A stretch of 64,000 nt of DNA, from assembly GCA_964535655.1 (NCBI GenBank), contig CAZHTP010000001.1, positions 98,573-162,572 of the forward strand, read 5' to 3'. A model generated the notes under the pieces. That model searched no databases. It saw only the letters and a program-made list of their open reading frames with translations, and was not told the DNA's origin. Source of the stretch: an uncultured Gammaproteobacteria bacterium. GTDB lineage: Bacteria > Patescibacteriota > Microgenomatia > JALYQM01. Positions 37,061-59,382 of the stretch are shown piece after piece (the first letter of the stretch is position 1; the number at the start of each line of letters is the position of its first letter). A program made the translations under genes and the position numbers.

Positions 37061-38440
37061 ATGGACCCGCAAAATAACCTTAAACAATTGCAGGATTTAT
37101 TTAATCAGGCTAAGGATATTCTTGTAATTACTAAAGAGAACCCAACTATTGATGGATTGTGCGCCTGTTTGGCTCTGAAAGCTGCTTTTTCTCAGAAAAT
37201 GGACATGCAAGGCAAGAAGAAGAATGTTACCCTGGCTGTTTCTAAACGTAATGGATCTCAGTATTCGCTATTGCCTGGCTTTGATCAGATTGTTTCTGAG
37301 CTTGGTCTACGTGATTTGGTGATTGGGGTTAATGGGTTTGTTGAAGGATCAATTGAAAATGTTAACTGGTATGTTGATAAAGGGCGATTAAACGTTGTTT
37401 TTAAGTCAAATCCGGCTGTTCCAATGCAATTTGATCTCAAAAACCTTGATCCATTTTATGCGGGCGCTAATTTTGATGTTGTAATTGTCGTTGATGCCAA
37501 TAGTCCTCAGGATTTAGGTAATGCGTATAAGCAGGATCCGGGAATGTATTCCGAGTTACCAGTAATTAATATCTCTAATAGTCAGCCTAACACTCGCTTT
37601 GGTCGAATCAATATTGTGGATTCCAGCGTCCCTTCAGTTTGTGAGTTAGCCTTTCAATTAGCTCAAATCGCTCAGCTAAATGTAATGGGCGATGTTGCTA
37701 CGTTATTTTTAAACGGGATAATGGAAGCCACGGATAATTTGTCTCGCAAAGGACAACAAACTGAAACAATTGTGAACCAATTAGTCGCCTTTGGTGGTCG
37801 CCAATTGGATATTAATGCTATCCGTAATCAGGCTAGTTTGCCGACACTGCCAGTTCATAAGAATCCTCCGCCTGTAACTCCTCCTGCCCCTGCGGTGGGT
37901 CAAATGCCTCCAGGAATGTACGGACAATATCCTCCAGGAATGCCGTATCCACCATATATGCCTCCACAAGGCCAATATGGACAGTATCCAATGCCACCAA
38001 TTGGGTATTATCCTGGTCAGTATCCGATGCCTCCACAAGTATATCCCCAGTATCCTCAGGTTCCACCACAGTATGTTCCACAACCCGATCCAAATATGCC
38101 AGTTCAACAGGAATGGAACAGCCAACAAACTCAGGAACCAATGGAAGAATATGATGCTGAAGTGCCTTCAATTGAGCACGATTTAACACAAAGTCAAACG
38201 TATATTCCAACTGTTGAACCGACATCATACGCCCATGTTGAGCCATCTATTTATATGCCTGGAATTTCCCAGCAGCCTGATGCGTATCAACCTGGCACTG
38301 ATTACGAATGGAATGATCAATCCCAGCAGTATGCTCCGCAACAGCAAGATATCCCGCTTGAAGAGCAAAAAGAGCAGCAAAAGGCACCCGATTTTAATGC
38401 TCCTCCTACAGGATTTGTGCCTGGTGAACGAAAATCGTAA
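37061..38440 (+). CDS. DHH/DHHA1-family NrnA-like protein with degenerate catalytic motifs, fused to a roughly 200-aa Pro/Gln/Tyr-rich low-complexity C-terminal region.
   Basis: An NrnA-like N-terminus is present (ILVITKENPTIDGLCACLALKA; VIVVDANSP where DHH is expected). GGRQ replaces the DHHA1 GGGH motif. The tail reads PPGMYGQYPPGMPYPPYMPPQGQYGQYPMPP... Confidence 0.65.
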   Translation: MDPQNNLKQLQDLFNQAKDILVITKENPTIDGLCACLALKAAFSQKMDMQGKKKNVTLAVSKRNGSQYSLLPGFDQIVSELGLRDLVIGVNGFVEGSIENVNWYVDKGRLNVVFKSNPAVPMQFDLKNLDPFYAGANFDVVIVVDANSPQDLGNAYKQDPGMYSELPVINISNSQPNTRFGRINIVDSSVPSVCELAFQLAQIAQLNVMGDVATLFLNGIMEATDNLSRKGQQTETIVNQLVAFGGRQLDINAIRNQASLPTLPVHKNPPPVTPPAPAVGQMPPGMYGQYPPGMPYPPYMPPQGQYGQYPMPPIGYYPGQYPMPPQVYPQYPQVPPQYVPQPDPNMPVQQEWNSQQTQEPMEEYDAEVPSIEHDLTQSQTYIPTVEPTSYAHVEPSIYMPGISQQPDAYQPGTDYEWNDQSQQYAPQQQDIPLEEQKEQQKAPDFNAPPTGFVPGERKS

Positions 38441-38559
38441 GGGATTCTTTTCAAGATTGACTTAGTCGTGTATAATGCTTTAATCATTATTTTAGATAGG
38501 TCGAAGATGGTGGTTTAAATGTGGAGTTCCACTTTTGTTACTACTGCTTACGAAAACAT

Positions 38560-38829
38560 ATGGCTTTAGCTAACGACGCTAAAAAGACTATTATTTCTAC
38601 AAACCAGATCCATCAAGGTGATACTGGGTCTCCTGAAGTTCAGGTAGCTATTCTCTCAGAGCGAATCACTCGTCTTACAGAGCATTTGAAGCTTCACAAA
38701 GGTGATAATCACTCTCGACGTGGTCTTTTGCAGATGGTAAATAAGCGCCGAAGACTCCTTATGTATCTTATGAAGAAAGATCCAGAGCGATATAAGTCCG
38801 TTGTTGCTAAAGTTGGCTTGTCCAAGTAA
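38560..38829 (+). CDS. rpsO: 30S ribosomal protein S15.
   Basis: [40 protein letters not shown]...KRRRLL is the S15 signature. Confidence 0.9.
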
Positions 38830-38865
38830 CACTCTTAATGAGAGTATTTTCTAAACCCTCCTTGA

Positions 38866-38962
38866 TGTCATTACGGTGGCACGCATAATTCCTCGCAAAG
38901 CTCGGAATTTAATGCTCAGCTTTTTTGCTAGTGGTATGAAAAAGAAGGCCACTGTGAATGAC
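38866..38962 (+). promoter_or_regulatory. Structured RNA region in the rpsO-pnp intergenic space. A long-range stem encloses nested hairpins, and it may be a processing or terminator element.
   Basis: TGTCATTACGGTGGC (38866-38880) pairs with GCCACTGTGAATGAC (38948-38962) at 13 of 15 positions. An inner hairpin pairs AATTCC with GGAATT (38887-38909). A small hairpin ACTCT-taatg-AGAGT lies immediately after the rpsO stop. Confidence 0.3.
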
Positions 38963-38974
38963 TTCTTCGGAGGT

Positions 38975-39001
38975 TTAGAGATTTATCATAATAGGGTATA
39001 A
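38975..39001 (+). promoter_or_regulatory. Putative pnp promoter (TTTAGA-N17-TATAAT).
   Basis: A consensus -10 TATAAT lies at 38996-39001, with an approximate -35 spaced 17 nt upstream. The pnp ATG follows about 147 nt downstream. Confidence 0.35.
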
Positions 39002-39148
39002 TGTCTATATTATTGTTTTCCCTTACCTTGGGAATCTTGGCATGATTTTGGATCCTGAATTAAACAGAAAAACTCTTTTTTCTGCTTGATCGAGGAATCT
39101 GAAAACTGTCGTGATGTGTCTTTTAGGTTAAGGAGAAGGAGTTATTTT

Positions 39149-41371
39149 ATGGCGAATATTATTTCGCAGAGTATTAAAATCGGAGATTCCGAGTTACTAC
39201 TTGAACATGGTCGTTTTGCAGCCCAAGCAAGCGGCGCAGTGATTGGTAGAATGGGCGAGACTATGGTTCTTGCAACGGTTGTTGCAAGCAAAAAAGAGTC
39301 TTCTTTAGACTATTTTCCTTTATCTGTTGAGTTTCTTGAGCGGCTTTATGCTGGTGGAAGAATTTCTTCTTCTCGCTTTATTAAACGTGAAGGTCGCCCT
39401 TCAGAAAATTCAATTTTAACTGCACGTCTTATTGATCGTTCAGTTCGTCCACTTTTTCCCGATGGATTTAAGAATGAAGTTCAGATTGTTGTTACCGTTC
39501 TTTCTGTTGACCTTGAACATGATCCAGATGTACTTGGCGTTATCACGGCAAGTGCTGCACTTGCAGTATCTGATATTCCTTGGAATGGTCCACTCGCTGC
39601 AACTCGCTTAGGCTGGAAAGATGAGACGTATTTGGTTAATCCAGTTGCTGAGGTAATGAGGGTTTCTCAGATGGATTTAATTGTTTCTGGAACAAAGAAT
39701 GAAGTTGTAATGGTTGAAGCTGGGATGCAAGAAATGCCAGAAGAGACTGTTGTTAATGGTCTTGAAGAAGCGCAGAAATATAACAAAATTGTTGTTGAAG
39801 GTATTGAAGAACTCGTTAAGAAAGTTGGAAAAGAGAAGTTTCATTTTGAAAAAGCTGAGATCTCTCAAGAAGATAAAGATGCTGTTACTCAGGTGGCACT
39901 CCCCCTTATTAATGAGATGGTTGAGCTTGCTGCTCAAAAGAAACTTAATAAAGAAGACGCTCTTGGTGAATTAAAGAAGCAAGTTGAAGAAAAACTTGCT
40001 GCTGTTGCAACAGAAGAAAGGCCAGTTCCATCAAAAGCTGTTATTGGCGAACTTTCGGAAAAATTGTTTAAGAAATCTATTCGCACTAATACACTTACTA
40101 CTGGAAAGCGTGCTGATGGACGATCATACGATCAGGTCCGTGAATTGGAAATTGAAGTCGGAGTAATTCCTCGTACGCATGGTTCAGCAATGTTTCAGCG
40201 TGGAATGACTCAAACTTTAACAACGGTAACTTTAGGATCTCCGTCACTTGAACAACTAATTGAAGGCCCGGGTGGCGAAGAAACTAAGCGCTACATGCAC
40301 CATTATAATTTCCCTCCTTATTCGGTGGGAGAAGCAAGGCGAATGGGTTCGCCAGGTCGTCGCGAAATAGGACACGGAGCACTTGCTGAGAGAGCCTTAG
40401 TTCCAGTTATTCCTCCACAAGAGCAGTTTCCCTATGCTATTCGTGTTGTTAATGAAATTATGTCTTCTAACGGGTCTTCTTCAATGGCTTCAGTCTGTGG
40501 GTCTTCACTTGCACTAATGGACGCAGGTGTTCCCGTTAAAGCGGCTGTTGCCGGTGTTGCGATGGGACTGATGACCAATGAAGAAGGTACGAAGTATGCC
40601 GTGTTAACCGATATTCAAGGTCTTGAAGATGCAACTGGTGATATGGACTTTAAAGTTGCTGGTACAGCAAAAGGTATTACTGCTTTGCAGATGGATATTA
40701 AACTCTCTGGTTTAAAACACGAATGGCTTAAGGATGCTGTTATGCAGGCCAAAGCAGGAAGAATGTTTATTCTTAATGCCATGCTTGAGAAGATCTCCCA
40801 GGCACGTCCTACACTTTCTAAATATGCACCTCGTGTTGTGATGATGAAGATTGATCCAGAGACCATTGGTTTAGTAATTGGTGGTGGTGGAAAAACTATC
40901 AATCAGATTATTAATCAGTGTGGTGTCGCGATTGATATTGAGGATGACGGCACCGTGCTTATAAGCGGAACTGAAGATGACGGTATTGCTAAGGCGCAGG
41001 CTTGGATTCTTTCTTTAACCAAAGAAATTAAAGTTGGTGAAGTATATGAAGGTGTTGTAAAACGAATTCTTGCTTTTGGCGCATTTGTTGAAATTCTACC
41101 TGGTAAGGAAGGTATGGTTCATATTTCGAAGCTTGCTCCAAATCGTGTTGAACGTGTAGAAGATGTCGTTCAGGTTGGTGATACCGTAACTGTTCGTGTT
41201 GATGAAATCGATTCCGAACGCCGTATTAACCTCACTATGGATGTTGCTGGTACATGGGTAAAAGAAGATCGCGGAGATGATACTAGCCATGGTGGAGGTC
41301 GTGAAGGAAGATTCGAGCGACGAGATCGTAATGGTGGCGGACGCAGTGACCGAGGTGGAAGACGTTGGTAG
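39149..41371 (+). CDS. pnp: Polynucleotide phosphorylase (PNPase) with an Arg/Gly-rich C-terminal tail.
   Basis: The RBS is AAGGAGAAGGAG. Two RNase PH domains, a KH domain and an S1 domain are present (GEVYEGVVKRILAFGAFVEI). The C-terminus reads GGGREGRFERRDRNGGGRSDRGGRRW. Confidence 0.93.
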   Translation: MANIISQSIKIGDSELLLEHGRFAAQASGAVIGRMGETMVLATVVASKKESSLDYFPLSVEFLERLYAGGRISSSRFIKREGRPSENSILTARLIDRSVRPLFPDGFKNEVQIVVTVLSVDLEHDPDVLGVITASAALAVSDIPWNGPLAATRLGWKDETYLVNPVAEVMRVSQMDLIVSGTKNEVVMVEAGMQEMPEETVVNGLEEAQKYNKIVVEGIEELVKKVGKEKFHFEKAEISQEDKDAVTQVALPLINEMVELAAQKKLNKEDALGELKKQVEEKLAAVATEERPVPSKAVIGELSEKLFKKSIRTNTLTTGKRADGRSYDQVRELEIEVGVIPRTHGSAMFQRGMTQTLTTVTLGSPSLEQLIEGPGGEETKRYMHHYNFPPYSVGEARRMGSPGRREIGHGALAERALVPVIPPQEQFPYAIRVVNEIMSSNGSSSMASVCGSSLALMDAGVPVKAAVAGVAMGLMTNEEGTKYAVLTDIQGLEDATGDMDFKVAGTAKGITALQMDIKLSGLKHEWLKDAVMQAKAGRMFILNAMLEKISQARPTLSKYAPRVVMMKIDPETIGLVIGGGGKTINQIINQCGVAIDIEDDGTVLISGTEDDGIAKAQAWILSLTKEIKVGEVYEGVVKRILAFGAFVEILPGKEGMVHISKLAPNRVERVEDVVQVGDTVTVRVDEIDSERRINLTMDVAGTWVKEDRGDDTSHGGGREGRFERRDRNGGGRSDRGGRRW

Positions 41372-41378
41372 ATTAGTT

Positions 41379-41400
41379 CCTCTATTTGTGATTAAATAGA
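41379..41400 (+). terminator. Hairpin after pnp (CTCTATTT-gtgat-TAAATAGAG), a putative terminator.
   Basis: An 8-bp AT-rich inverted repeat lies immediately after the pnp stop. The U-tract is weak. Confidence 0.4.
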
Positions 41401-41424
41401 GTTACTAGTCGTTACGTTCTTATT

Positions 41425-42501
41425 ATGGCTGACGGACAAAATAGCGATATTTTACAACAACAGACAGATGAACTGCGAGCTCGAGTAGAAGGCGCGAACG
41501 TTCCGGATGGTATTCGAGAAAAATGCCTTGGAATGATTGAGCGTATCGCACGAATGGCGAAGTTTGGTACGTATTCAATTGAATATGAAAATACTTCCCG
41601 ATATATTGATGTTGTGCTGTCAATTCCGTGGGGTGTACTTTCGGAAGATGTTTTGAATCCAACTGTTGCACGAGAAGCGTTAGATAAACATCAATATGGG
41701 CTCGAGCCAGTTAAAGAACGTGTTTTGGAGTACTTAGCTGTTTTACAATTACACCAATATCGTAAACAGCAATTGGGACAAGACGATACGTTTCGCGCTC
41801 CAGTTATCATGTTGGTAGGCCTTGCTGGTACTGGTAAGACATCGTTTGCTTATGCTGTTGCTGACGCAATGAATCGTAAAGTAGCTCGTATTCCGTTTGG
41901 CGGAATGGGGGATGCACTTACGCTTCGTGGACAGTCGCGCGCATTCGCAGATGCTGAGCCAGGTGCGGTTATTAAAGCACTTCTGCAAGCAGGAACACGC
42001 AACCCGGTCATGCTTTTGGACGAAATAGATCGTGTGTCCGATGAAGCACGGGCAAGTGTGATGGGTGTGTTACTTGAGCTTCTTGATCCGCAGCAAAATG
42101 TAGCGTTTCGTGATCACTATTTGGATTATCCGGTTGATTTGTCTGAATGTCTCTTTATCGCGACTGGAAACAACACGACAAATATATCTACGGCGGTATT
42201 GGATCGTTTGGAGGTTATCCAAATGCCATCGTATACAGATGAGGAAAAAATTACTATTGCAGCGAAGTATGTTTTCCCCAAAGCACTACAGGAATCGGGT
42301 TTACCTGAAAATGCAATTATTATTGACCCTTCGGTTTGGCCACAAGTGGTCAGACCACTCGGATTTGATTCCGGCATTCGTACCCTTGAGCGTACGATTC
42401 GCGGAATGTGCCGCAAGGTAGCTCGTATGATTGTTGGTGGAAGTGTTCAGCAAGTGCATGTTACCTCGGAAAATGTAAAGGAATTTTTGCCTACCTGGTA
42501 G
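41425..42501 (+). CDS. Lon-like AAA+ ATPase module lacking both the N-terminal LON substrate-binding domain and the C-terminal S16 protease domain.
   Basis: The pre-AAA region matches Lon (IPWGVLSEDVLNPTVAREALDKHQYGLEPVKERVLEYLAV). Walker A is GLAGTGKTS, Walker B is VMLLDEID, and sensor residues are present. The ORF ends after the helical lid and contains no Ser-Lys dyad region. Confidence 0.75.
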   Translation: MADGQNSDILQQQTDELRARVEGANVPDGIREKCLGMIERIARMAKFGTYSIEYENTSRYIDVVLSIPWGVLSEDVLNPTVAREALDKHQYGLEPVKERVLEYLAVLQLHQYRKQQLGQDDTFRAPVIMLVGLAGTGKTSFAYAVADAMNRKVARIPFGGMGDALTLRGQSRAFADAEPGAVIKALLQAGTRNPVMLLDEIDRVSDEARASVMGVLLELLDPQQNVAFRDHYLDYPVDLSECLFIATGNNTTNISTAVLDRLEVIQMPSYTDEEKITIAAKYVFPKALQESGLPENAIIIDPSVWPQVVRPLGFDSGIRTLERTIRGMCRKVARMIVGGSVQQVHVTSENVKEFLPTW

Positions 42502-42577
42502 GCTCGAAAGAGAGTTTCGTCTCTCGACTTCACTCGAGATGATTTTAGATAGATAAGTTAAATTAAGGAAAAATCAC

Positions 42578-44749
42578 ATGTCAAATGATACTAATGAAAA
42601 TAACAAAAATGATGGAGTAACTGATTTCTCAGCACTTGTTCCTCAAAAAAATAGATATAATCCTGCGAAGGATTCCGTACAGGTAGCACTTGGTGAATTG
42701 CGAGAGAATATCGCGCAAAAAAATCGCCCTCCCTTTCAGAAAAGAAATGATGGGACACGTCCAGTGCCACGAAATGATGCTCCACGTATCGATGGATCCC
42801 GCACTGATGGTCCACGTCGGCCGGCTCGAGCACCTGCTCCTAATCGTCGACCGCAAGGTGATGGCTATGGAGACCAGATACGCCCTGCTGGTAATCGTCG
42901 CAGTGGTTCGTATGAACCTCGTCGCCGCGATTCACGAGGACCAAGTCAGAACCGCTATCCACAATCACCTCGCCCTATGAGTTCATCAATGGCACGAGGT
43001 GCAACAATTCAAAATACTAACTTATCTCAGCAATGGTATGCCGAAACGGTACCGGTGTTACGGAAAGATCCTAACGTAGTTGAAACTGCAAAACTGCGCA
43101 TTCTTCCTATTGGAGGAATTAATGATGTTCAAAAGAATATGTATGTCTATGAAACCGAAAAAGACATAATAATTATCGACTGCGGGATGGGTTTTGCAGA
43201 CGAAGATATGCCGGGTGTTGATTATTTAATTCCTGATATTTCATATCTTAATGACAAAAAAGATAAGATTCGCGCAATTCTTATTACTCACGGGCATGAT
43301 GACCATATCGGAGCGTTATCGCTAATTTGGCCACAATTAAGGTGTCCTATTTATGCTTCGCATATTACAACTGGTTTTATAAAAACCAAAATGACTGAGC
43401 ATAATTTGCCGGTTGAAGATATTAAAGAGATTGATCCAGACGCATCATATGAATTTGGTGTGTTTAGATTTCAATTCTTTAGATTAAGTCATTCCATTCC
43501 TGATACGTTGGGGTTTGTAATGGATACTCCTGTTGGTAGAATTATTCATAGTGCAGATTTTAAATTTGATTATACTCCGGTAATAGGATTACCAACTGAT
43601 GTTCAGCGTATTGCACGATTTGGCGCAGAAGGTGTTTTGTTATTGCTTTCAGATAGTCTTGGCGCTGAAAAGCCAGGCTATACATTATCTGAAACTGTAG
43701 TTGAAGGACAATTTGATGTTGTTACTGCAAAAACTGTAGGTAAAGTAATTGTCACTACAACTAGCTCAAATATTTCTCGTATTCAGCTTGCTATGAATAT
43801 TGCAGCCAAGTACAATCGCAAAGTTGCTGTGTCTGGGCGTTCAATGGAACAGAATATTGGTGTTGCTCGTAATCTCGGATACTTGAAGTATTCTGATGAT
43901 ATGTTTATTGAGCTTGAGGATATTGGGAAGTATGAGGACCATGAATTGTTCTTAATTGTAGCGGGATCACAGGGGCAAATGGAATCAGCTCTTGGTCGTG
44001 TGTCCCGCGATGAACATAAACAGATTCGCCTTCGCCAGGGTGATTCAGTGGTGTTTTCAACGGATCCAATTCCCGGTAATGAAAACCAGACTAATAAATT
44101 AATTGACGCGCTTATCTCGCATGGTGCTGAAGTGTATTATTCAAATATTTTTAGTAACCTGCATGTTTCAGGTCACGCTGCTCAAGAAGAGCTTAAACTA
44201 ATGATTAGCCTCGTTCGCCCACAATACCTCTTACCTATTGGTGGAACAGCACGAAGTACTAAGAAGTATCGTGATATTGCTATGAATATGGGCTTCAATC
44301 AAGAGTCGGTGTTACTTCCTCAAGAAGGTGAGGTAATTGAATTTAATGTTAAAGACGGAGTTTCTACGCCTTCGATTAACGGTCGCTTTGAAGCAAAGGA
44401 TGTGATGGTTGATGGTCTTGGGGTGGGAGACTTATCTGACATTGTGATTCGCGATCGTCAAGTAATGGCTGAAGAGGGTATGTTGGTAGTTATTGTTCCG
44501 GTTGATCATAAAACGGGGCATACGGAAAGTGGGGTCGAGATTGTTTCGCGTGGATTTGTATACATGAAAGAATCGACTCAGTTGATTGATGACATTACTA
44601 AACTGGTTGAGGATATTCTTGAAGAGCAGCATGGTAAGCCAATGGATTGGACGCTTCTTCGAAAGAAGATTGAAGATCGAGTAAGTAAGTTTATCTTTAA
44701 AGAGATTAAACGTAAACCTATGGTTTTGCCGGTGGTGTTTGAGGTTTAA
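42578..44749 (+). CDS. rnj: Ribonuclease J (metallo-beta-lactamase/beta-CASP) with a roughly 170-aa Arg/Pro/Gly-rich N-terminal extension.
   Basis: ILITHGHDDHIGAL (HxHxDH) and beta-CASP motifs are present, together with the RNase J C-terminal domain. The N-terminus reads RNDGTRPVPRNDAPRIDGSRTDGPRRPARAPAPNRRPQGDGYG... Confidence 0.88.
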   Translation: MSNDTNENNKNDGVTDFSALVPQKNRYNPAKDSVQVALGELRENIAQKNRPPFQKRNDGTRPVPRNDAPRIDGSRTDGPRRPARAPAPNRRPQGDGYGDQIRPAGNRRSGSYEPRRRDSRGPSQNRYPQSPRPMSSSMARGATIQNTNLSQQWYAETVPVLRKDPNVVETAKLRILPIGGINDVQKNMYVYETEKDIIIIDCGMGFADEDMPGVDYLIPDISYLNDKKDKIRAILITHGHDDHIGALSLIWPQLRCPIYASHITTGFIKTKMTEHNLPVEDIKEIDPDASYEFGVFRFQFFRLSHSIPDTLGFVMDTPVGRIIHSADFKFDYTPVIGLPTDVQRIARFGAEGVLLLLSDSLGAEKPGYTLSETVVEGQFDVVTAKTVGKVIVTTTSSNISRIQLAMNIAAKYNRKVAVSGRSMEQNIGVARNLGYLKYSDDMFIELEDIGKYEDHELFLIVAGSQGQMESALGRVSRDEHKQIRLRQGDSVVFSTDPIPGNENQTNKLIDALISHGAEVYYSNIFSNLHVSGHAAQEELKLMISLVRPQYLLPIGGTARSTKKYRDIAMNMGFNQESVLLPQEGEVIEFNVKDGVSTPSINGRFEAKDVMVDGLGVGDLSDIVIRDRQVMAEEGMLVVIVPVDHKTGHTESGVEIVSRGFVYMKESTQLIDDITKLVEDILEEQHGKPMDWTLLRKKIEDRVSKFIFKEIKRKPMVLPVVFEV

Positions 44750-44783
44750 ATTGGTAGTAGCTTTCTTGTCGAGCTTTGATGGT

Positions 44784-44856
44784 GACACGCTTAACGCTTC
44801 GTATTCGCTTGCGTTTAAAGCTCTACTCTGCCTTTAGTTGTTTGGCAGAGAAGGTC
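44784..44856 (+). repeat. Copy B of the roughly 75-nt two-hairpin intergenic element.
   Basis: GACACGCTTAACGCTTCGTATTCGCTTGCGTTTAAAGCTCTACTCTGCCTTTAGTTGTTTGGCAGAGAAGGTC. Hairpin 1 pairs AACGC (44793-44797) with GCGTT (44811-44815). Hairpin 2 pairs CTCTGCC (44826-44832) with GGCAGAG (44844-44850). The element starts 35 nt after the rnj stop. Confidence 0.5.
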
Positions 44857-45011
44857 ACCACAAAGCTCTCCTTCAAAAGCTTATCTTCTCGTGGCTCACC
44901 AGCGGAATTTCTATCTTCAAAACTCTCAACGCGGAAGTTGTAATAGCATCACTGAGATTTTATTTCAAGTTCGTGACAAATGGGCTTGGTGCTGCTATAG
45001 TAGTTTTTGAA

Positions 45012-47195
45012 ATGTCAAAATCTGCCAAGAAACCCGCCAAAAAAACATCATCGTCGCGTCGAGCAAAGCGAGGTGGTTTAAGTCCTGCAGTGTTACGCTC
45101 TTCTTTTGCCATTTTGTTGTATGTTGGCGCGCTTCTCGTAATTCTTTCGTTTGTTTTGAAGAGCGATATCTTTTTATCAATTCGCGAAAATTTATTTCAT
45201 TATTTTGGGTTAGGAATGTTTTTTCTTCCCTTGATACTTATCAGTTTTGGAATTTTCGTACAAGGCTTCAAGTTAAAATTAGGTCAGCCACATATATTAG
45301 TGGGAGTACCTCTGTGTGTGCTTTCGTTGTTAGCCTTAATTTCTCCCTTTTCATTTGATTATTCTGGAGTAGTAGGGAATAGAGTATGGGGGAGTTTAAA
45401 TGAGTTTTTGCCGATGCCGATAACCAGCTTGTTGTTGGTTATTATTTTGGTTATTGGCTTGGCGGTGCTTTTTGATACGTCGCTTGATTTGTTTTTTGAA
45501 AAAATATTTCAGGGAATTGGTGGTTTCTTTAATTTAATATTCAGTCGCTTTGTTTGGCATAAATCTGCCATAGAAGTGTCTCGCAGTACGGTTAGTACTC
45601 TTTCGGCTGTCTCGACGGCGGCTCCATCGGGTGGATTACGTGAAGGTTTACGGATTTTTGGAAAGAAAGAGAAGAAAATAGTTGATCCGGCTATGGATGA
45701 TGGTGTAAAGCCTGAGCCGCCAAAGAAAATGTCGGAAGAGGAATCTATAAGCATTCGAATGGGAAATCCATCATTATCTGGACAAGTTTGGAATTATCCT
45801 CCTCTTTCAATTTTTTCTAACGCTCCAGGTAAGCCTGCGGATCGTGGAGATGTAAAGAACAATTCTAATATTATCGAAAAAACGCTGGAGAGTTTTGGCA
45901 TTATTGCTAAAGTAGTCGAAATTGATCAAGGGCCGGCTGTGACTCGTTATGCCCTTGATTTAGCACAGGGAACTAAAATTGCAAAAATAACTTCATTGCA
46001 GTCTGATTTAGCGATGGCGCTTGCAGCTCATACCGGTGAGGTTCGTATTGAGGCTCCAATCCCAGGTAAAGCCTTGGTTGGTATCGAAATTCCAAATAGA
46101 ACCCTCGAGATTGTTCCCATCCGATCTATTTTGGGCAACGAAGATGTTAAGAATCATAAATCTAAGTTACTTGTTCCCCTTGGATTTGATGCGGCTTGTC
46201 GCCCCCTTATTGCTGATATTACTCGCATGCCGCACTTATTGGTTGCTGGTACTACTAACTCGGGTAAATCGGTGATGCTTAATGGCATTATCGTATCTTT
46301 GTTGTTTAGAGCAAGCCCAGACGAGGTTAAATTAATTTTAGTTGATCCAAAGCGCGTGGAAATGGGCGGCTATAATGGTTTACCTCATTTGCTTACTCCA
46401 GTTATTCATGATGCTGATAAGATTGTGTCTGCTTTGAAATGGGCTGTTGCAGAAATGCAGCGTCGTTACCAGATGTTCTCTGAAGTTGGGGCTCGAAATA
46501 TCAGCAGTTACAATGAGATGAGTGGGTTTCAGGCGGTACCTTATATTGTCATTATTATTGACGAGTTGGCTGATTTGATGATGTTCGCGCCATCTGAAGT
46601 AGAAGAAGCGATCTGTCGTTTAGCGCAGATGGCTCGAGCGGTTGGAATTCATTTGATTATTGCTACACAACGTCCTTCAGTTGATGTTTTGACCGGTTTA
46701 ATTAAGGCTAACATCCCTGCTCGCATGGCATTTAACGTTTCTTCGCAAGTTGATTCACGCGTTATTTTGGATACTCAGGGGGCAGAAAAGCTTTTGGGTA
46801 GGGGAGATATGCTATATCTTGCTTCTGATGCAGCCAAGCCAACGCGAATTCAGTCGCCTTTTGTTCGAGACGAAGAAATTAATGCGTTGGTAAACTTTAT
46901 TAAAGCATCAGGTATTGCTCCGGTTTATACTGAGGAAGTTGTTACGCAACCTATTAACTCAGTGCGAGGTGGAAATGGATCAATGGGTAGCGATGATGAA
47001 CATGATCCCCAGTATGATGAAGCAATGCGGATTGTTATAGATTCTGGTAATGCTTCAGCATCTTTCTTGCAACGTAAAATGAAGGTAGGCTATGCACGTG
47101 CTGCTCGATTGTTGGATCAGTTGGAAGCTTCGGGGGTTGTAGGGCCAGCTAATGGCTCGAAGCCGCGAGAGATATTGCGAAGGGACGTGCAGTAG
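45012..47195 (+). CDS. ftsK: DNA translocase FtsK/SpoIIIE (N-terminal 4-TM anchor, motor domain, gamma winged-helix domain).
   Basis: Walker A is LVAGTTNSGKS and Walker B is IIIDELADLMM. The gamma domain reads DPQYDEAMRIVIDSGNASASFLQRKMKVGYARAARLLDQLE. The start is chosen at the Met before the first TM. Confidence 0.88.
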   Translation: MSKSAKKPAKKTSSSRRAKRGGLSPAVLRSSFAILLYVGALLVILSFVLKSDIFLSIRENLFHYFGLGMFFLPLILISFGIFVQGFKLKLGQPHILVGVPLCVLSLLALISPFSFDYSGVVGNRVWGSLNEFLPMPITSLLLVIILVIGLAVLFDTSLDLFFEKIFQGIGGFFNLIFSRFVWHKSAIEVSRSTVSTLSAVSTAAPSGGLREGLRIFGKKEKKIVDPAMDDGVKPEPPKKMSEEESISIRMGNPSLSGQVWNYPPLSIFSNAPGKPADRGDVKNNSNIIEKTLESFGIIAKVVEIDQGPAVTRYALDLAQGTKIAKITSLQSDLAMALAAHTGEVRIEAPIPGKALVGIEIPNRTLEIVPIRSILGNEDVKNHKSKLLVPLGFDAACRPLIADITRMPHLLVAGTTNSGKSVMLNGIIVSLLFRASPDEVKLILVDPKRVEMGGYNGLPHLLTPVIHDADKIVSALKWAVAEMQRRYQMFSEVGARNISSYNEMSGFQAVPYIVIIIDELADLMMFAPSEVEEAICRLAQMARAVGIHLIIATQRPSVDVLTGLIKANIPARMAFNVSSQVDSRVILDTQGAEKLLGRGDMLYLASDAAKPTRIQSPFVRDEEINALVNFIKASGIAPVYTEEVVTQPINSVRGGNGSMGSDDEHDPQYDEAMRIVIDSGNASASFLQRKMKVGYARAARLLDQLEASGVVGPANGSKPREILRRDVQ

Positions 47196-48844: not shown

Positions 48845-49921
48845 ATGGCAAAAATACTTAAACAAGATAAAACAGCCCACGAGGAAGTTATTTTTGAGGC
48901 TGTTAGGGTATTGAAAAACGGCGGTATTATTATTTATCCTACTGAGACACTGTACGGTATAGGTGTTGATGCGACCAACCAAGCGGCTGTAGATAAATTA
49001 CTTCAATATAAAACTCGACGAGAAGGGAAGCCTTTGTCGATTGCCGTATCTGACACTGAGATGGCAGAAAAGTATGTTGAGGTTAATGATATTGCTCGAA
49101 ATCTATACCGCAATTTTCTTCCTGGGCCTGTTACTGTTGTTTCAAAGAGTAAAGGTGCTGTTGCCAAAGGTGTCGAAGCAGAAATTGGGACATTGGGAAT
49201 TCGTATTCCTGATTATACTTTGATAAGAGAAATAGTTGCTGCATTTGGTAAGCCTATCACGGCCTCATCGGCAAATGCTTCAAATCAAAAAAGACCATAT
49301 GCAGTTTCTGATGTTCTTGAAAATATTTCGGAAAAACAAGAAAGTCTCATTGATTTAATTATTGATGCGGGTACTTTACCTAAGCGAGAGCCATCGACTG
49401 TTGTAGATACTACACTTAATCAAGAGGTGGTCTTGCGACAGGGAAGCATAAAGCTTAGTACTGTACTGGAGCAAAAAACGCAGTCTGCAAAAGAGACACA
49501 AGAAGTAGGTTTTAAGTTAATGAAAAAGTATTTACATCATCTTGGATATAAGTCGGTAATCTTTGCTTTACACGGAGAACTTGGTGCAGGCAAAACACAA
49601 TTGTCTAAGGGTATTGCACGAGCACTTGGAATTACTGAGGTGGTAACGTCGCCGACTTTTATCATTGAACGTGATTACACATTGCCTGCTGGTCATTTAT
49701 TTCATATCGACACCTGGCGACTGTTTGATAAACAAGAATTATTGGATTTAGGTTTTATGAAAAAAATAGAAGAAGGTAATGTCTTTGCTATTGAGTGGGC
49801 TGATCGGTTTAGTGAGCTTATTGATCAGGTGGCAAATGATGCGATGATAATTTGGGTTGGACTGCAATATGGTTCAAGTGAGACTGAACGTATTATTAAA
49901 GTGAGTGATTATACAGTATGA
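48845..49921 (+). CDS. tsaC-tsaE: Fusion of TsaC/YrdC/Sua5-type threonylcarbamoyl-AMP synthase (N-terminal) with TsaE/YjeE ATPase (C-terminal).
   Basis: The N-terminal half is a YrdC fold (IIIYPTETLYGIGVDATNQAAVDKLLQYKTRREGKPLSIAV). The C-terminal half carries the TsaE motifs GELGAGKT, SPTFIIERDY and HIDTWRL. Confidence 0.8.
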   Translation: MAKILKQDKTAHEEVIFEAVRVLKNGGIIIYPTETLYGIGVDATNQAAVDKLLQYKTRREGKPLSIAVSDTEMAEKYVEVNDIARNLYRNFLPGPVTVVSKSKGAVAKGVEAEIGTLGIRIPDYTLIREIVAAFGKPITASSANASNQKRPYAVSDVLENISEKQESLIDLIIDAGTLPKREPSTVVDTTLNQEVVLRQGSIKLSTVLEQKTQSAKETQEVGFKLMKKYLHHLGYKSVIFALHGELGAGKTQLSKGIARALGITEVVTSPTFIIERDYTLPAGHLFHIDTWRLFDKQELLDLGFMKKIEEGNVFAIEWADRFSELIDQVANDAMIIWVGLQYGSSETERIIKVSDYTV

Positions 49922-56943: not shown

Positions 56944-59382
56944 ATGTCTTCAACAATCTATTTAGATGGGAAGCCGGTGAAGTTGCGGGAAGAACTGCCT
57001 TTAGTTTCTTTGAGGGAAAAAGTAGTATTTCCTTCTTCATGGGAAAGTTTCTCAATTAATAGGGATAAATCCAAACTCGCGTTGGATGCATCCACAACGA
57101 CAAATGGACTTGTCGTTTTTGTTTGTCAAAAAAATCCACAAACTGTTAACCCTGATTCCAGCGATATGTACGATGTTGGCACCATTGCCCGCATTCGTCG
57201 TTTCTGGAAAGTTAATGGCGATTATAATCTTACCGTTGAAGGGTTAACCCGAGTCTATATTAAAGAATATGTTCAAGATGAACCGTATTTTGTAGTTCGC
57301 TGTGAGGAGATTCCTGAATTGACTACACATAATGATGAAATCGAGGCATTAGTTGCGAATATTACTGCGCAAATGAATCACTACCGGGAGGTAGGTGGAC
57401 ATTTGTCGTTAGAGTCTTCAATTGCGATCTTTTCTGCAGAAGACCCTAATCAATTGTGTAATGCTATTACTGCCGGTGTGGATTTTAAGCCATTTGATAA
57501 ACAGCAAATTCTTGAGATGGTAGACACTCGGGATCGCTTACAAAAGGTAAGTGAACTTCTTGCACACGAAATTCGTGTCCTTGAAATTGGTCAAAAAATT
57601 GCGAACCAAACACAGGAACGTGTTAAGCGAGTTACCAAAGAGGCAATTTTGCGCGAGCAGATGAGTGCAATTAAAAAAGAGCTTGGTGAAGATGAAACAG
57701 AGGATGAAAGTGCAAATGAAGTAAGTGGCCTTAAGAAAGCAGTTAAGAATGCTAAAATGCCTAAAGAAGTACAAGAGAAAGTTGAAAAAGAAATTAAGCG
57801 ACTTTCTAAAATGCCAGCTATGAGCCCTGAAGTTTCATACCTGCGTACATATATCGATACCGTTCTTGAACTTCCCTGGGGAGTTAAGACTGAGGCAAAA
57901 GTTAATGTGTCGGATGCTGAGAAAATTCTTGATGAAGAACATTACGGTTTAAATAAAGCTAAAGAACGTATCTTGGAGTTTTTAGCTGTGCAAAAACTTG
58001 CCGGTAAAATGAAAGGTCCAATTCTTTGCTTTTCGGGTCCTCCAGGAGTAGGAAAGACTTCAATTGGAAAGTCTATTGCTAAGGCATTGGGACGTAAATT
58101 TGTAAAAGTATCTTTAGGCGGAATTCGTGATGAAGCAGAAATCCGCGGACATCGCCGCACGTATGTTGGTGCCTTGCCGGGAAGAATTATTCAGGGTATT
58201 AAACAGTCCGGTTCTTCAAACCCCGTGTTTATGCTTGATGAAATAGATAAAATTGGTAATGATTACCGGGGTGATCCTTCGGCAGCTTTACTTGAAGCGC
58301 TTGATCCTGAGCAGAACAATAACTTCTCAGATCACTACTTGGAAGTTCCGTTCGATCTTTCGGATGTGATGTTTATTGCTACGGCAAACGTTTTGGAAAC
58401 AATACCGCATGCGCTTCGCGATCGCTTGGAGATAATTGAATTCCCAGGCTATACGGAGCATGAAAAATTCCAAATTGCTGAAACGTATCTGGTGCCAAAA
58501 CAGGTTGAGAATCACGGTTTGAAGGAGAATCAATTTACTCTTACCAGTGATGCTTTAAAGAAAATTATTAATTCGTATACACGAGAGGCAGGTGTGCGAA
58601 GTTTGGAGCGAGAAGTTTCTGCTGTAATTCGTAAGGTGGCGAGAAAAGTAGCGGAAGACAAGGGAACTGAATTCACTATTGATTTGAAAGACGTACCTGA
58701 ATACTTGGGTCCAGCAAAGTTTAGCCCTGAGATTGCTGAAAAGGAAAACGAAATTGGTATGTCAACCGGGTTATTCTGGACTGAAGTGGGAGGAGGAATT
58801 CTCTTTATTGAAGTAAGTGTTGTTCCTGGCAAGGGACAGCTCACCTTAACTGGCTCACTTGGTGATGTAATGAAAGAATCGTGTATGGCTGCTATCAGCT
58901 ATGTACGTTCACGTGCATCGGCTTTAGGATTGGATGAGAAGTTCAACCAAAAGGTAGATATTCATGTCCACGTTCCATCAGGCGCTGTACCCAAAGATGG
59001 TCCATCGGCAGGTGCGGCTATAACAACTGCGTTAGTGTCAGCCTTAACACGAATTCCAACTCGCAAAGATGTTGCGATGACTGGTGAAATTACTCTGCGC
59101 GGTAGAGTAACTGAAATTGGTGGCTTAAAGGAAAAAATTATTGGTGCACACCGTGCTGGAATTAAAACCGTAATCATTCCTAAAGAGAATGAGAAAGATA
59201 TTGTTGAAATTCCTGATATGGTTAAAAATGATTTGAACTTCTATTTTGTAGACCATATGGATCAGGTTTTACCAATAGTTTTGACTGAAAAGATTAATGC
59301 GTCAAAGCCTCAAAAATTAGGAATTCGTAAGAATCCTGAAAAAAAGGCTAAGGATGAAGATTTTAAAGTTGCGGTTGGATAA
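56944..59382 (+). CDS. lon: ATP-dependent Lon protease, full length (LON N-domain, AAA+, S16 protease).
   Basis: The RBS is GAGGAGAGGA. The N-terminal motif is LPLVSLREKVVFP, Walker A is GPPGVGKTS, and the protease active site is PKDGPSAGAAITTALVSAL with Ser and a downstream Lys. Confidence 0.92.
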   Translation: MSSTIYLDGKPVKLREELPLVSLREKVVFPSSWESFSINRDKSKLALDASTTTNGLVVFVCQKNPQTVNPDSSDMYDVGTIARIRRFWKVNGDYNLTVEGLTRVYIKEYVQDEPYFVVRCEEIPELTTHNDEIEALVANITAQMNHYREVGGHLSLESSIAIFSAEDPNQLCNAITAGVDFKPFDKQQILEMVDTRDRLQKVSELLAHEIRVLEIGQKIANQTQERVKRVTKEAILREQMSAIKKELGEDETEDESANEVSGLKKAVKNAKMPKEVQEKVEKEIKRLSKMPAMSPEVSYLRTYIDTVLELPWGVKTEAKVNVSDAEKILDEEHYGLNKAKERILEFLAVQKLAGKMKGPILCFSGPPGVGKTSIGKSIAKALGRKFVKVSLGGIRDEAEIRGHRRTYVGALPGRIIQGIKQSGSSNPVFMLDEIDKIGNDYRGDPSAALLEALDPEQNNNFSDHYLEVPFDLSDVMFIATANVLETIPHALRDRLEIIEFPGYTEHEKFQIAETYLVPKQVENHGLKENQFTLTSDALKKIINSYTREAGVRSLEREVSAVIRKVARKVAEDKGTEFTIDLKDVPEYLGPAKFSPEIAEKENEIGMSTGLFWTEVGGGILFIEVSVVPGKGQLTLTGSLGDVMKESCMAAISYVRSRASALGLDEKFNQKVDIHVHVPSGAVPKDGPSAGAAITTALVSALTRIPTRKDVAMTGEITLRGRVTEIGGLKEKIIGAHRAGIKTVIIPKENEKDIVEIPDMVKNDLNFYFVDHMDQVLPIVLTEKINASKPQKLGIRKNPEKKAKDEDFKVAVG

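What the first reader, a model, noticed from the sequence alone, without database searches (positions are those of the whole stretch)
41425..42501. Protease-less Lon paralog (AAA+ module only) embedded between pnp and rnj, with a full-length Lon 14 kb downstream
This 358-aa protein aligns by motif to the Lon region from just before the AAA+ domain. It has the pre-AAA LPW..D...A...LD..HYGL..VKERVLEYLAV block, Walker A GLAGTGKTS and Walker B LLDEID. It stops at the end of the helical lid. There is no LON N-domain and no S16 Ser-Lys protease domain, and no downstream ORF supplies one. A complete Lon (56944-59382, with PKDGPSAGAAI) exists in the same window, so this is a diverged paralog rather than a fragment of the only lon gene. 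Its position is immediately after polynucleotide phosphorylase and before RNase J. That suggests a role as an ATP-dependent unfoldase or remodeller attached to the RNA-decay machinery, or a regulatory Lon-like ATPase.
Basis: partly seen in the sequence, partly recalled or inferred. Interest (0 to 1): 0.62.

Follow-up and report, generated by a model that had tools for sequence, protein, structure and literature searches.

The report
Protease-less Lon-type ATPase of Patescibacteria
This gene encodes only the ATP-burning motor of the Lon protease, with no substrate-binding head or protease domain; it belongs to a large, strongly conserved and unstudied protein family of the ultra-small Patescibacteria (CPR), and usually sits between the RNA-degrading enzymes PNPase and RNase J.

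Summary
ORF 41425-42501 (+) is an intact 358-aa protein that matches only positions 245-572 of the 795-position Lon model. It has no LON N-domain, no S16 protease and no frameshift continuation. A complete LonA lies at 56944-59382.

It is not a one-off. All 80 related species loci examined carry a stand-alone orthologue of 344-433 aa. A second large clade occurs in Dojkabacteria/WS6. On a rough tree the protease-less proteins form one clade, separate from LonA. Walker A/B, sensor 1, the arginine finger and sensor 2 are invariant, and dN/dS is about 0.03.

The substrate-gripping pore loops are remodelled. The pore-loop-1 aromatic survives in only about half of members, is followed by conserved acidic residues (D-A-E-P-G), and the pore-loop-2 aromatic is lost.

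The order rpsO-pnp-X-rnj holds across Microgenomatia and in 2 of 3 Dojkabacteria loci.

Best reading: an active, probably ring-forming, non-proteolytic ATPase that remodels a specific client rather than acting as a general unfoldase. The link to RNA decay rests on gene order alone.

It is a new variant of a known kind, and I found no paper describing it.

The parts
41425..42501 (+). Gene X: stand-alone LonA-type AAA+ ATPase, 358 aa, with no N-domain and no protease domain
   Evidence: TIGR00763 (lon) scores E=3e-90 over profile positions 245-572 of 795. Pfam finds AAA plus Lon_lid. The AlphaFold model (pLDDT 86) matches LonA AAA+ modules with a query-normalised TM-score of 0.80-0.86.
41425..41775 (+). 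aa 1-117: helical bundle and PW...HYGL...VKERVLEYLAV segment, equivalent to the LonA region just before the AAA+ domain
   Evidence: Predicted helices 3-23, 28-44, 50-66, 79-89 and 94-117. The segment aligns to window Lon residues 247-353 and to MtaLon from residue 246.
41818..41844 (+). Walker A, GLAGTGKTS (aa 132-140)
   Evidence: G132, G135, G137, K138 and T139 are invariant in 81 Microgenomatia and 131 Dojkabacteria-type members.
41926..41964 (+). Remodelled pore loop 1, RGQSRAFADAEPG (aa 168-180); LonA has RGHRRTY[IV]GA[LM]PG
   Evidence: The aromatic position 174 is F26/R20/H18/Y11/L5 of 81 and F48/E29/Y19 of 131. D176 and E178 are nearly invariant. Tyr397 of MtaLon is the substrate-contacting residue (PMC8503904).
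42013..42030 (+). Walker B, LLDEID (aa 197-202)
   Evidence: D199 and E200 are invariant.
42037..42066 (+). Pore-loop-2 region (aa 205-214). The position of MtaLon Trp431 is Ala208 here
   Evidence: Alignment to MtaLon. Family position 208 is A/G/T/S or S/T/E/G/A, never aromatic. The role of Trp431 is described in PMC8503904.
42169..42171 (+). Sensor-1 Asn249
   Evidence: Invariant.
42205..42207 (+). Arginine finger Arg261 (MtaLon Arg484)
   Evidence: Invariant in all 212 family sequences examined. Its role in LonA is described in PMC8503904.
42379..42381 (+). Sensor-2 Arg319 (MtaLon Arg541) in the lid
   Evidence: Invariant.
38521..38829 (+). rpsO (ribosomal protein S15), start of the conserved rpsO-pnp-X block
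   Evidence: Pfam Ribosomal_S15, E=3e-34. Synteny.
39086..41371 (+). pnp (polynucleotide phosphorylase). It ends 53 nt before X and carries an Arg/Gly-rich C-terminal tail
   Evidence: NCBIfam PRK11824, E=5e-276. pnp lies upstream of X in 65 of 67 testable loci. The tail is shown.
42578..44749 (+). rnj (RNase J). It starts 76 nt after X. aa 1-170 form a basic low-complexity extension
   Evidence: NCBIfam RNase J subfamily TIGR00649, E=1e-163 (545.6 bits, above its 400-bit cut-off), matching aa 174-720; the RNase J1 model NF047419 scores below its cut-off. rnj lies downstream of X in 62 of 65 testable loci. The extension is shown.
44838..47195 (+). ftsK, the next member of the conserved block
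   Evidence: Pfam FtsK_SpoIIIE with the alpha and gamma domains. Synteny.
56944..59382 (+). Full-length LonA (N-domain, AAA+, lid and S16 protease). It is 35% identical to X over the shared region
   Evidence: Orthologues lie on the same contigs as X orthologues in 5 relatives (one search compared).

Best explanation
X is a functional member of an old, Patescibacteria-wide family that arose by duplication of LonA and kept only the pre-AAA helical bundle, the AAA+ alpha/beta domain and the lid.

**Shown**
- The gene is intact.
- It is under strong purifying selection.
- It always occurs stand-alone.
- It coexists with a complete LonA.
- It keeps every residue needed to bind and hydrolyse ATP, including the trans-acting arginine finger.

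**Inferred**
- It therefore works as an oligomer, most likely a Lon-like hexameric ring, that hydrolyses ATP.
- With no protease domain it cannot degrade anything. With no N-domain it cannot recognise degrons the way LonA does.
- Its channel loops have been rebuilt. The aromatic 'paddle' of pore loop 1 is dispensable in the family. Two acidic residues (D176, E178) are fixed next to it. The pore-loop-2 aromatic is gone.
- I therefore think it is not a general polypeptide-threading unfoldase. It is more likely an ATP-driven remodelling or assembly/disassembly factor, or a switch, for one specific conserved client, possibly a basic one.
- Its placement at the 3' end of the rpsO-pnp unit and next to rnj across two CPR classes makes PNPase, RNase J or the RNA-protein complexes they act on the leading candidate clients. 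That last step is inference from gene order only.
For: - **Architecture.**
- **Family size and constant length.** The top 120 homologues are mostly 346-392 aa (range 338-474). All 80 species loci carry ORFs of 344-433 aa, and none is fused to Lon_C. A Dojkabacteria clade exists.
- **Separate clade.** The protease-less proteins form one clade apart from LonA, including the window's own Lon.
- **ATPase residues.** Walker A, Walker B, sensor 1, the Arg finger, sensor 2 and the LDPxQN base loop are invariant. Their roles in LonA are described in PMC8503904.
- **Pore-loop remodelling.**
- **Selection.** dN/dS is about 0.03 against L001 and L002. Median identity to the window protein is 56% across 77 species, compared with NusA 57%, S15 57%, PNPase 51% and RNase J 41%.
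- **Coexistence with LonA.**
- **Synteny.** pnp lies upstream in 65 of 67 testable loci, and rnj lies downstream in 62 of 65. The order rpsO-pnp-X-(NUDIX)-UDG-rnj is seen in two Dojkabacteria. X-rnj adjacency is seen in the P0133 and P0201 lineages.
Against: - No biochemical data exist for any member.
- Oligomerisation is inferred, not shown. In LonA the protease domain contributes much of the hexamer interface (from my own knowledge of the family).
- The window protein itself still has Phe174 at the pore-loop-1 position, so some threading activity is not excluded.
- The 80 loci were selected by similarity to X. This inflates X's relative conservation.
- dS is near saturation.
- The NJ tree is coarse and has no support values.
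- The synteny block also contains functionally unrelated genes (ftsK, a rodZ-like gene).
- From memory, a looser infB...rpsO-pnp...rnj...ftsK order also exists in Actinobacteria. If so, the arrangement may be inherited gene order rather than functional coupling.
- The arrangement is broken in WS6 GW2011_GWF2_39_15 and in the P0153 lineage.
Confidence: 0.6

Rival explanations
1. RNA-degradosome motor. X binds PNPase and/or RNase J physically. It uses ATP to unwind or strip structured RNA or RNA-bound proteins, playing the part that DEAD-box helicases play in other degradosomes.
For: pnp-X-rnj order is conserved in Microgenomatia. pnp-X adjacency, with gaps of 8-54 nt, occurs in two Dojkabacteria. 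X-rnj adjacency occurs in two other lineages. Microgenomatia PNPases carry Arg-rich tails, and this lineage's RNase J carries a basic disordered extension that an acidic pore could grip.
Against: X has no RNA-binding domain. The basic patch used by E. coli and Caulobacter Lon for DNA binding (R306/K308/K310/K311) is replaced by a segment with a median net charge of -1 (PMC11719849). The pore loops are acidic, which is unfavourable for nucleic acid. The Arg-rich PNPase tail is absent in Dojkabacteria, which also have X. Synteny is lost in some lineages. No literature supports the idea.
Confidence: 0.2
2. LonA modulator. X co-assembles with full-length LonA in mixed rings, or binds it. This dilutes protease and N-domains and so tunes substrate choice or activity.
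For: X always coexists with LonA where this could be tested (window). The ring-forming elements (Arg finger, base loop) are of Lon type. Tandem-AAA Lon proteins show that extra Lon-type AAA modules can be combined with a Lon protease.
Against: X is only 35% identical to its own LonA and forms an old, separate clade. The two genes are 14 kb apart and are not linked in relatives (one search found no Lon N- or C-domain hit within +/-10 kb in 80 loci). Family-specific conserved surfaces argue for a function of its own.
Confidence: 0.12
3. HslU/ClpX-like cap. X is the ATPase partner of a separately encoded peptidase and feeds it substrates.
For: X belongs to the same AAA+ clade as HslU and ClpX, which work this way (established knowledge). 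The C-terminus is conserved to the last residue in Microgenomatia...FLPxW, with W or Y in 69 of 81.
Against: The terminal aromatic is not conserved in the Dojkabacteria clade. No peptidase gene is linked in any locus. The pore-loop aromatics are dispensable in the family.
Confidence: 0.05
4. Artefact or decaying fragment: a truncated lon pseudogene, or a frameshifted gene whose protease part is hidden.
For: None beyond the truncated architecture.
Against: The same stand-alone architecture is found in 80 of 80 species loci and in hundreds of further cluster representatives listed. dN/dS is about 0.03. There is no Lon_C-like sequence in any frame downstream.
Confidence: 0.01

Closest known systems
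LonA protease (E. coli Lon, Meiothermus taiwanensis LonA, human LONP1)
   Same: X shares the pre-AAA helical bundle, the AAA+ alpha/beta domain with its pre-sensor-1 hairpin, and the Lon-type lid. It is 35-38% identical to LonA. Foldseek gives a query-normalised TM-score of 0.80-0.86. The Walker A/B motifs, sensor 1, Arg finger and sensor 2 are identical in kind.
   Different: X has no N-terminal substrate-binding domain and no S16 Ser-Lys protease domain. Pore loop 1 is x-[FYRH]-P-[DE]-A-E-P-G instead of T-Y-[IV]-G-A-[LM]-P-G. The pore-loop-2 aromatic is lost. The basic DNA-binding patch is absent.
Recombinant E. coli Lon AAA+ fragment (PDB 6n2i)
   Same: It is almost co-extensive with X. X residues 11-355 align to chain residues 8-339 of 344 (E=3e-68), and the target-normalised TM-score is 0.88.
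   Different: 6n2i is a laboratory truncation of a protease. X is a natural, conserved, independently evolving gene.
HslU and ClpX (stand-alone unfoldases of the same AAA+ clade)
   Same: Both are free-standing ATPases of the HslU/ClpX/Lon/ClpAB-C clade with no covalently attached protease.
   Different: X matches the ClpX models only at E of about 1e-3. It has no I-domain, zinc-binding domain or IGF loop. No partner peptidase gene is linked. The pore-loop aromatic is not conserved.
LonC-type Lon-like proteases (degenerate ATPase, active protease)
   Same: This is another natural Lon derivative in which one of the two activities has been given up (from established knowledge of the Lon subfamilies; subfamilies A, B and C are listed in PMC9569914).
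   Different: It is the reciprocal case. LonC keeps the protease and loses ATPase function. X keeps the ATPase and has lost the protease domain altogether.
Tandem-AAA Lon proteins seen (P0121-P0126 and others)
   Same: They contain additional Lon-type AAA+ modules that lack a protease domain of their own.
   Different: In those proteins the extra modules are fused in cis, upstream of a normal AAA-protease unit, and they cluster by protein rather than with X. X is free-standing.

Membership tests
LonA protease (MEROPS S16 / NCBIfam TIGR00763 endopeptidase La) | N-terminal LON substrate-binding domain (PF02190) | tested here: not met
   X has no PF02190 hit. The window's own Lon scores E=7e-40. 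tblastn with the Lon N-domain hits only 56944-57633.
LonA protease (MEROPS S16 / NCBIfam TIGR00763 endopeptidase La) | C-terminal S16 protease domain with a Ser-Lys dyad (PF05362) | tested here: not met
   X has no PF05362 hit. The protein ends at the A-P linker. There is no continuation in any frame. The domain is absent in 80 of 80 orthologues.
LonA protease (MEROPS S16 / NCBIfam TIGR00763 endopeptidase La) | Lon-type AAA+ module with Lon lid | tested here: met
   PF00004 scores E=2e-16 and PF22667 (Lon_lid) scores E=1e-7. The structural match to LonA is shown.
LonA protease (MEROPS S16 / NCBIfam TIGR00763 endopeptidase La) | Score above the curated whole-protein cut-off of the equivalog model | tested here: not met
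   303.7 bits against a cut-off of 608 (TIGR00763). 240.6 bits against a cut-off of 891 (NF008053).
Active ring-forming AAA+ ATPase | Walker A Lys/Thr, Walker B Asp-Glu, sensor-1 Asn, trans Arg finger and sensor-2 Arg | tested here: met
   All are invariant in 81 and 131 family sequences.
Active ring-forming AAA+ ATPase | Hexamer formation and ATP hydrolysis | not testable with these tools
   No multimer modelling or biochemistry was available. This is inferred from the conserved Arg finger only.
Classical polypeptide-threading AAA+ unfoldase | Conserved aromatic-hydrophobic pore-loop-1 motif | tested here: not met
   The aromatic is present in 37 of 81 (46%) and 67 of 131 (51%) members, and is R/H/E/N/Q in the others. 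The next residue is mostly Pro in Microgenomatia. The Gly is replaced by Asp/Glu. The window protein itself has Phe174-Ala175.
Classical polypeptide-threading AAA+ unfoldase | Pore-loop-2 substrate-contacting aromatic (MtaLon Trp431) | tested here: not met
   The position is Ala208 in X and A/G/T/S/E in the family. The role of Trp431 is described in PMC8503904.
RNA degradosome component | Conserved gene linkage with degradosome ribonucleases | tested here: met
   pnp lies upstream in 65 of 67 testable loci, and rnj lies downstream in 62 of 65. The linkage is also seen in 2 of 3 Dojkabacteria loci. It is not universal.
RNA degradosome component | RNA-binding module or surface | tested here: not met
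   No RNA-binding domain was found. The LonA basic DNA-binding patch is not conserved, with a median net charge of -1.
RNA degradosome component | Physical association with PNPase, RNase J or a scaffold | not testable with these tools
   This needs pull-downs or complex modelling.
Anti-phage defence AAA+ (PADLOC families, BrxL-type Lon-like) | Match to a defence-system model or a defence neighbourhood | tested here: not met
   Only weak generic AAA hits were found (DolB 1e-8, TRIP13 1e-5). The neighbourhood is housekeeping genes.

The most novel reading that the evidence does not exclude
X is the ATP-driven motor of a Patescibacteria-specific RNA-decay complex built on PNPase and RNase J. In this reading, a Lon-derived AAA+ ring with an acidic pore grips basic, Arg-rich tails or RNA-bound basic proteins. 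It would take the place that DEAD-box helicases hold in other degradosomes.
Probability: 0.12. Interest if true: 0.75.

Novelty: new variant of a known kind. Interest (0 to 1): 0.5.

Why it matters
- **For Lon research.** Lon has been studied for decades as a single-chain machine that combines recognition, ATPase and protease functions. This family is a natural, ancient and strongly conserved version that keeps only the motor and has rebuilt its pore. It asks what a Lon motor does when nothing is degraded.
- **For Patescibacteria biology.** Genomes in this group are small, so a gene conserved as well as nusA or rpsO is probably important.
- **For annotation.** Public databases name the protein either 'AAA family ATPase' or, wrongly, 'ATP-dependent Lon protease'. 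Neither Pfam nor NCBIfam has a model for it. Defining the family would correct those names.
- **For RNA decay.** The fixed position behind pnp and beside rnj gives a concrete, testable lead into RNA-decay organisation in CPR bacteria, about which I found nothing published.

Tried and rejected
1. **Frameshift, fragment or pseudogene.** Rejected. There is no Lon_C-like sequence downstream in any frame. The architecture is identical in 80 of 80 species. dN/dS is about 0.03.
2. **Another AAA+ clade (RuvB, ClpX, CbbX, RFC).** Rejected. Those models score E>=1e-5 against 3e-90 for Lon. The structural neighbours are all LonA.
3. **Anti-phage defence ATPase.** Rejected.
4. **C-terminal ...FLPxW as a docking motif (HbYX- or HslU-like).** The motif is conserved only in Microgenomatia. 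Dojkabacteria-type members end differently. I dropped it as a family feature.
5. **Arg-rich PNPase tail as the family-wide client.** The tail is nearly universal in Microgenomatia but absent in the two Dojkabacteria PNPases next to X. It is therefore not a family-wide correlate.
6. **Promoter and terminator scan of 38400-45000.** Counts were no higher than in shuffled sequence. There is only a weak hairpin at 42522-42539, so this says nothing about operon structure.
7. **Exact-sequence look-up of X to identify the source contig.** The protein is not on record.
8. **Literature searches for a protease-less Lon, or for CPR Lon-like or degradosome work.** Nothing relevant was found.
9. **Complex modelling.** The available structure tool predicts single chains only, so a hexamer or complex could not be modelled.
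Full report
**1.

ORF 41425-42501 on the + strand starts with ATG and encodes 358 residues. All quoted motifs are present. Pfam finds an AAA domain (aa 128-266) and the Lon-specific lid (aa 290-340). It finds neither the LON substrate-binding N-domain nor the Lon_C protease domain.

The NCBIfam equivalog for endopeptidase La matches at E=3e-90, but only over profile positions 245-572 of 795. The score of 303.7 bits is far below the 608-bit cut-off. Models for ClpX, RFC, CbbX and other AAA+ families score E>=1e-5.

The best solved-structure relatives are all LonA: Meiothermus taiwanensis, Thermus, E. coli, Yersinia, Bacillus and human LONP1. E-values range from 6e-72 to 1e-63. X is nearly co-extensive with the crystallised E. 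coli Lon AAA+ fragment 6n2i.

An AlphaFold2 model (pLDDT 86) shows a helical bundle, an alpha/beta domain and a lid. It superposes on LonA AAA+ modules with a query-normalised TM-score of 0.80-0.86.

Nothing protease-like follows the stop codon in any frame. The only Lon N- or C-domain sequence in the window belongs to the complete lon gene at 56944-59382. X is 35% identical to that Lon over the shared region.

**2. It is a family, not an accident**

The window is from a member of the Patescibacteria (CPR), class Microgenomatia. The best homologues are mostly 346-392 aa and 56-89% identical. Where named, they are called 'AAA family ATPase' from Microgenomates, Shapiro-, Gottesman- and Levybacteria, or wrongly 'ATP-dependent Lon protease'.

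A scan of one genome per GTDB species found 326 species with a relative. In the 80 loci kept, the orthologous ORF is 344-433 aa and is never fused to a protease domain.

An exhaustive search of 1.84 billion cluster representatives, followed by a profile search, revealed further protease-less lineages. These include a large Dojkabacteria/WS6 clade (about 380-430 aa) and several unnamed ones, some with low-complexity N- or C-terminal extensions.

In a neighbour-joining tree of AAA+ modules, all protease-less proteins form one clade. That clade is separate from canonical LonA, including the window's own Lon. The tree is coarse and has no support values.

X is under strong purifying selection. dN/dS is about 0.03 against two close relatives, although dS is near saturation. 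Across 77 Microgenomatia species its median identity to the window protein is 56%. The comparison values are NusA 57%, S15 57%, PNPase 51% and RNase J 41%. The loci were chosen by similarity to X, which biases this comparison in X's favour.

Full-length LonA orthologues lie on the same contigs as X orthologues in at least five relatives, judged by matching contig lengths of 1,573,555, 49,261, 43,883, 373,835 and 97,623. X therefore adds to Lon rather than replacing it.

**3. What is conserved and what has changed**

These residues are invariant in 81 Microgenomatia and 131 Dojkabacteria-type sequences:
- Walker A (G132, G135, G137, K138, T139)
- Walker B (D199, E200)
- sensor-1 N249
- the arginine finger R261
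- sensor-2 R319

In M. taiwanensis LonA the equivalents Arg484, Arg541 and Asp444-Glu446 build the inter-subunit ATPase site (PMC8503904). A conserved trans-acting arginine makes sense only in an oligomer.

The substrate-contacting elements differ. LonA pore loop 1 reads R-G-H-R-R-T-Y-[IV]-G-A-[LM]-P-G. Tyr397 grips the polypeptide, and both Tyr397 and pore-loop-2 Trp431 are required for degradation.

In X the loop is R-G-Q-S-R-A-F-A-D-A-E-P-G. Across the family:
- The Tyr position is F26/R20/H18/Y11/L5 of 81 in Microgenomatia, and F48/E29/Y19 and others of 131 in the second clade.
- The following residue is mostly Pro in Microgenomatia.
- The Gly is Asp/Glu in 80 of 81.
- The [LM] is Glu in 80 of 81 and 128 of 131.
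- The Trp431 position is A/G/T/S/E and is never aromatic.

The loop is therefore conserved, but to a different, acidic consensus, and its aromatic residue is dispensable.

The basic surface patch that binds DNA in E. coli Lon is R306/K308/K310/K311; I recalled which residues these are and verified only their sequence context against 6u5z. The equivalent Caulobacter lysines K301/K303/K305/K306, modelled on the E. coli study, are documented in PMC11719849. In X the patch is replaced by G-V-L-S-E-D-V-L-N, and the family median net charge of the segment is -1.

**4. Genomic context**

In the window the order is nusA, infB, a DHH protein, rpsO, pnp, X, rnj, ftsK and a rodZ-like gene. All are on the + strand. 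The gap before X is 53 nt and the gap after it is 76 nt.

The same order recurs in the 80 Microgenomatia loci:
- pnp lies upstream in 65 of 67 testable loci, and 46 of these have a gap under 600 nt.
- rnj lies downstream in 62 of 65, and 40 of these have a gap under 300 nt.

Outside Microgenomatia:

| Lineage | Context |
|---|---|
| Two Dojkabacteria (P0307, P0290) | infB-?-rpsO-pnp-X-(NUDIX)-UDG-...-rnj, with pnp-X gaps of 54 and 8 nt |
| P0133 lineage | X-rnj-ftsK |
| Basal P0201 lineage | DUF3352-X-rnj |
| P0146 and P0147 | X-UDG, like the Dojkabacteria arrangement |
| One WS6 genome (P0330) and the P0153 lineage | rearranged, with no pnp or rnj nearby |

The ancestral arrangement was thus very probably pnp-X-rnj.

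Two cautions apply. The block also holds genes unrelated to RNA decay. From memory, a looser infB...rpsO-pnp...rnj...ftsK order is also seen in Actinobacteria. The neighbourhood may therefore be inherited gene order compacted by genome reduction rather than an operon selected for function.

The promoter and terminator scan was uninformative.

**5. Mechanism**

What is shown: X is an intact, selected, stand-alone Lon-type AAA+ protein with a complete ATPase site.

What is inferred: it forms a ring and hydrolyses ATP. It cannot degrade proteins, and it cannot recognise substrates through a Lon N-domain. Because the pore-loop aromatics are dispensable and acidic residues are fixed in the loop, it is probably not a general threading unfoldase. 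It is more likely a specialised remodelling factor or ATP-dependent switch acting on a particular, possibly basic, client. Gene order makes PNPase, RNase J or their RNA-protein substrates the leading candidates.

I give the core statement a probability of 0.6. I give the specific RNA-decay link about 0.2 when stated as a physical degradosome motor.

The rivals are:
- a LonA modulator or mixed ring (0.12);
- an HslU-like cap for a separate peptidase (0.05);
- an artefact (0.01).

**6. Comparison with what is known, and novelty**

X works like the motor of LonA but fails three of the four defining features of a Lon protease: the N-domain, the protease domain and the model cut-off. It should not be called Lon protease.

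It is the reciprocal of the LonC type, which has an active protease and a degenerate ATPase. It is a natural counterpart of the laboratory fragment 6n2i.

Pfam and NCBIfam have no model for it. Five literature searches found no description.

I rate it a new variant of a known kind, with interest 0.5. It would be noteworthy to Lon/AAA+ and CPR specialists and is testable, but it is not a new kind of system, and its function is still only inferred.

Noticed in passing
Proteins P0121-P0126, P0128, P0136 and others (not in the window): These proteins are 900-1700 aa long. They carry two or three tandem Lon-type AAA+ modules followed by a single Lon protease domain, a 'tandem-AAA Lon' architecture. 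The modules cluster by protein in the NJ tree. Their origin is unknown because that library has no annotation.
   Followed up: partly
window 41270-41371 (PNPase C-terminus) and loci L001-L079: The PNPase ends in an Arg/Gly-rich basic tail (...GGGREGRFERRDRNGGGRSDRGGRRW). Arg-rich low-complexity tails of about 16-108 aa follow the S1 domain in nearly all Microgenomatia PNPases examined. They are absent in the two Dojkabacteria PNPases looked at.
   Followed up: partly
window 42578-43090: RNase J carries a strongly basic, Arg/Pro/Asn-rich, low-complexity N-terminal extension of about 170 aa. It aligns only in the three closest relatives, L001-L003. It resembles the Arg-rich disordered scaffolds of RNase E-type enzymes.
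   Followed up: partly
window 48845-49921: A single ORF combines Sua5/YciO/YrdC (TsaC-type) and TsaE domains, and tsaD follows immediately (49918-50973). This is a fused t6A-synthesis gene.
   Followed up: no
L001 (contig CAYOFQ010000001.1): The closest relative (X 91% identical, Lon 96%) lies on a single 1.57-Mb contig labelled 'uncultured Gammaproteobacteria'. That is large for a Patescibacteria genome, and the label is evidently wrong. Many other loci carry similarly implausible labels (Nevskiaceae, Bathyarchaeia, Methylomirabilota) while showing the same CPR gene order.
   Followed up: no
L089 6217-6873, L090 6673-7326, L088 3421-4053, L081 1443-2084: In the Dojkabacteria-type lineages a uracil-DNA glycosylase gene sits directly or almost directly downstream of X, between X and rnj where rnj is visible.
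   Followed up: no
window 37061-38440: A 459-aa protein between infB and rpsO matches only the DHH N-terminal domain (E=1.5e-7). It occupies the position where rbfA/truB sit in many bacteria. It is poorly conserved across the clade, with a median identity of 27%.
   Followed up: no
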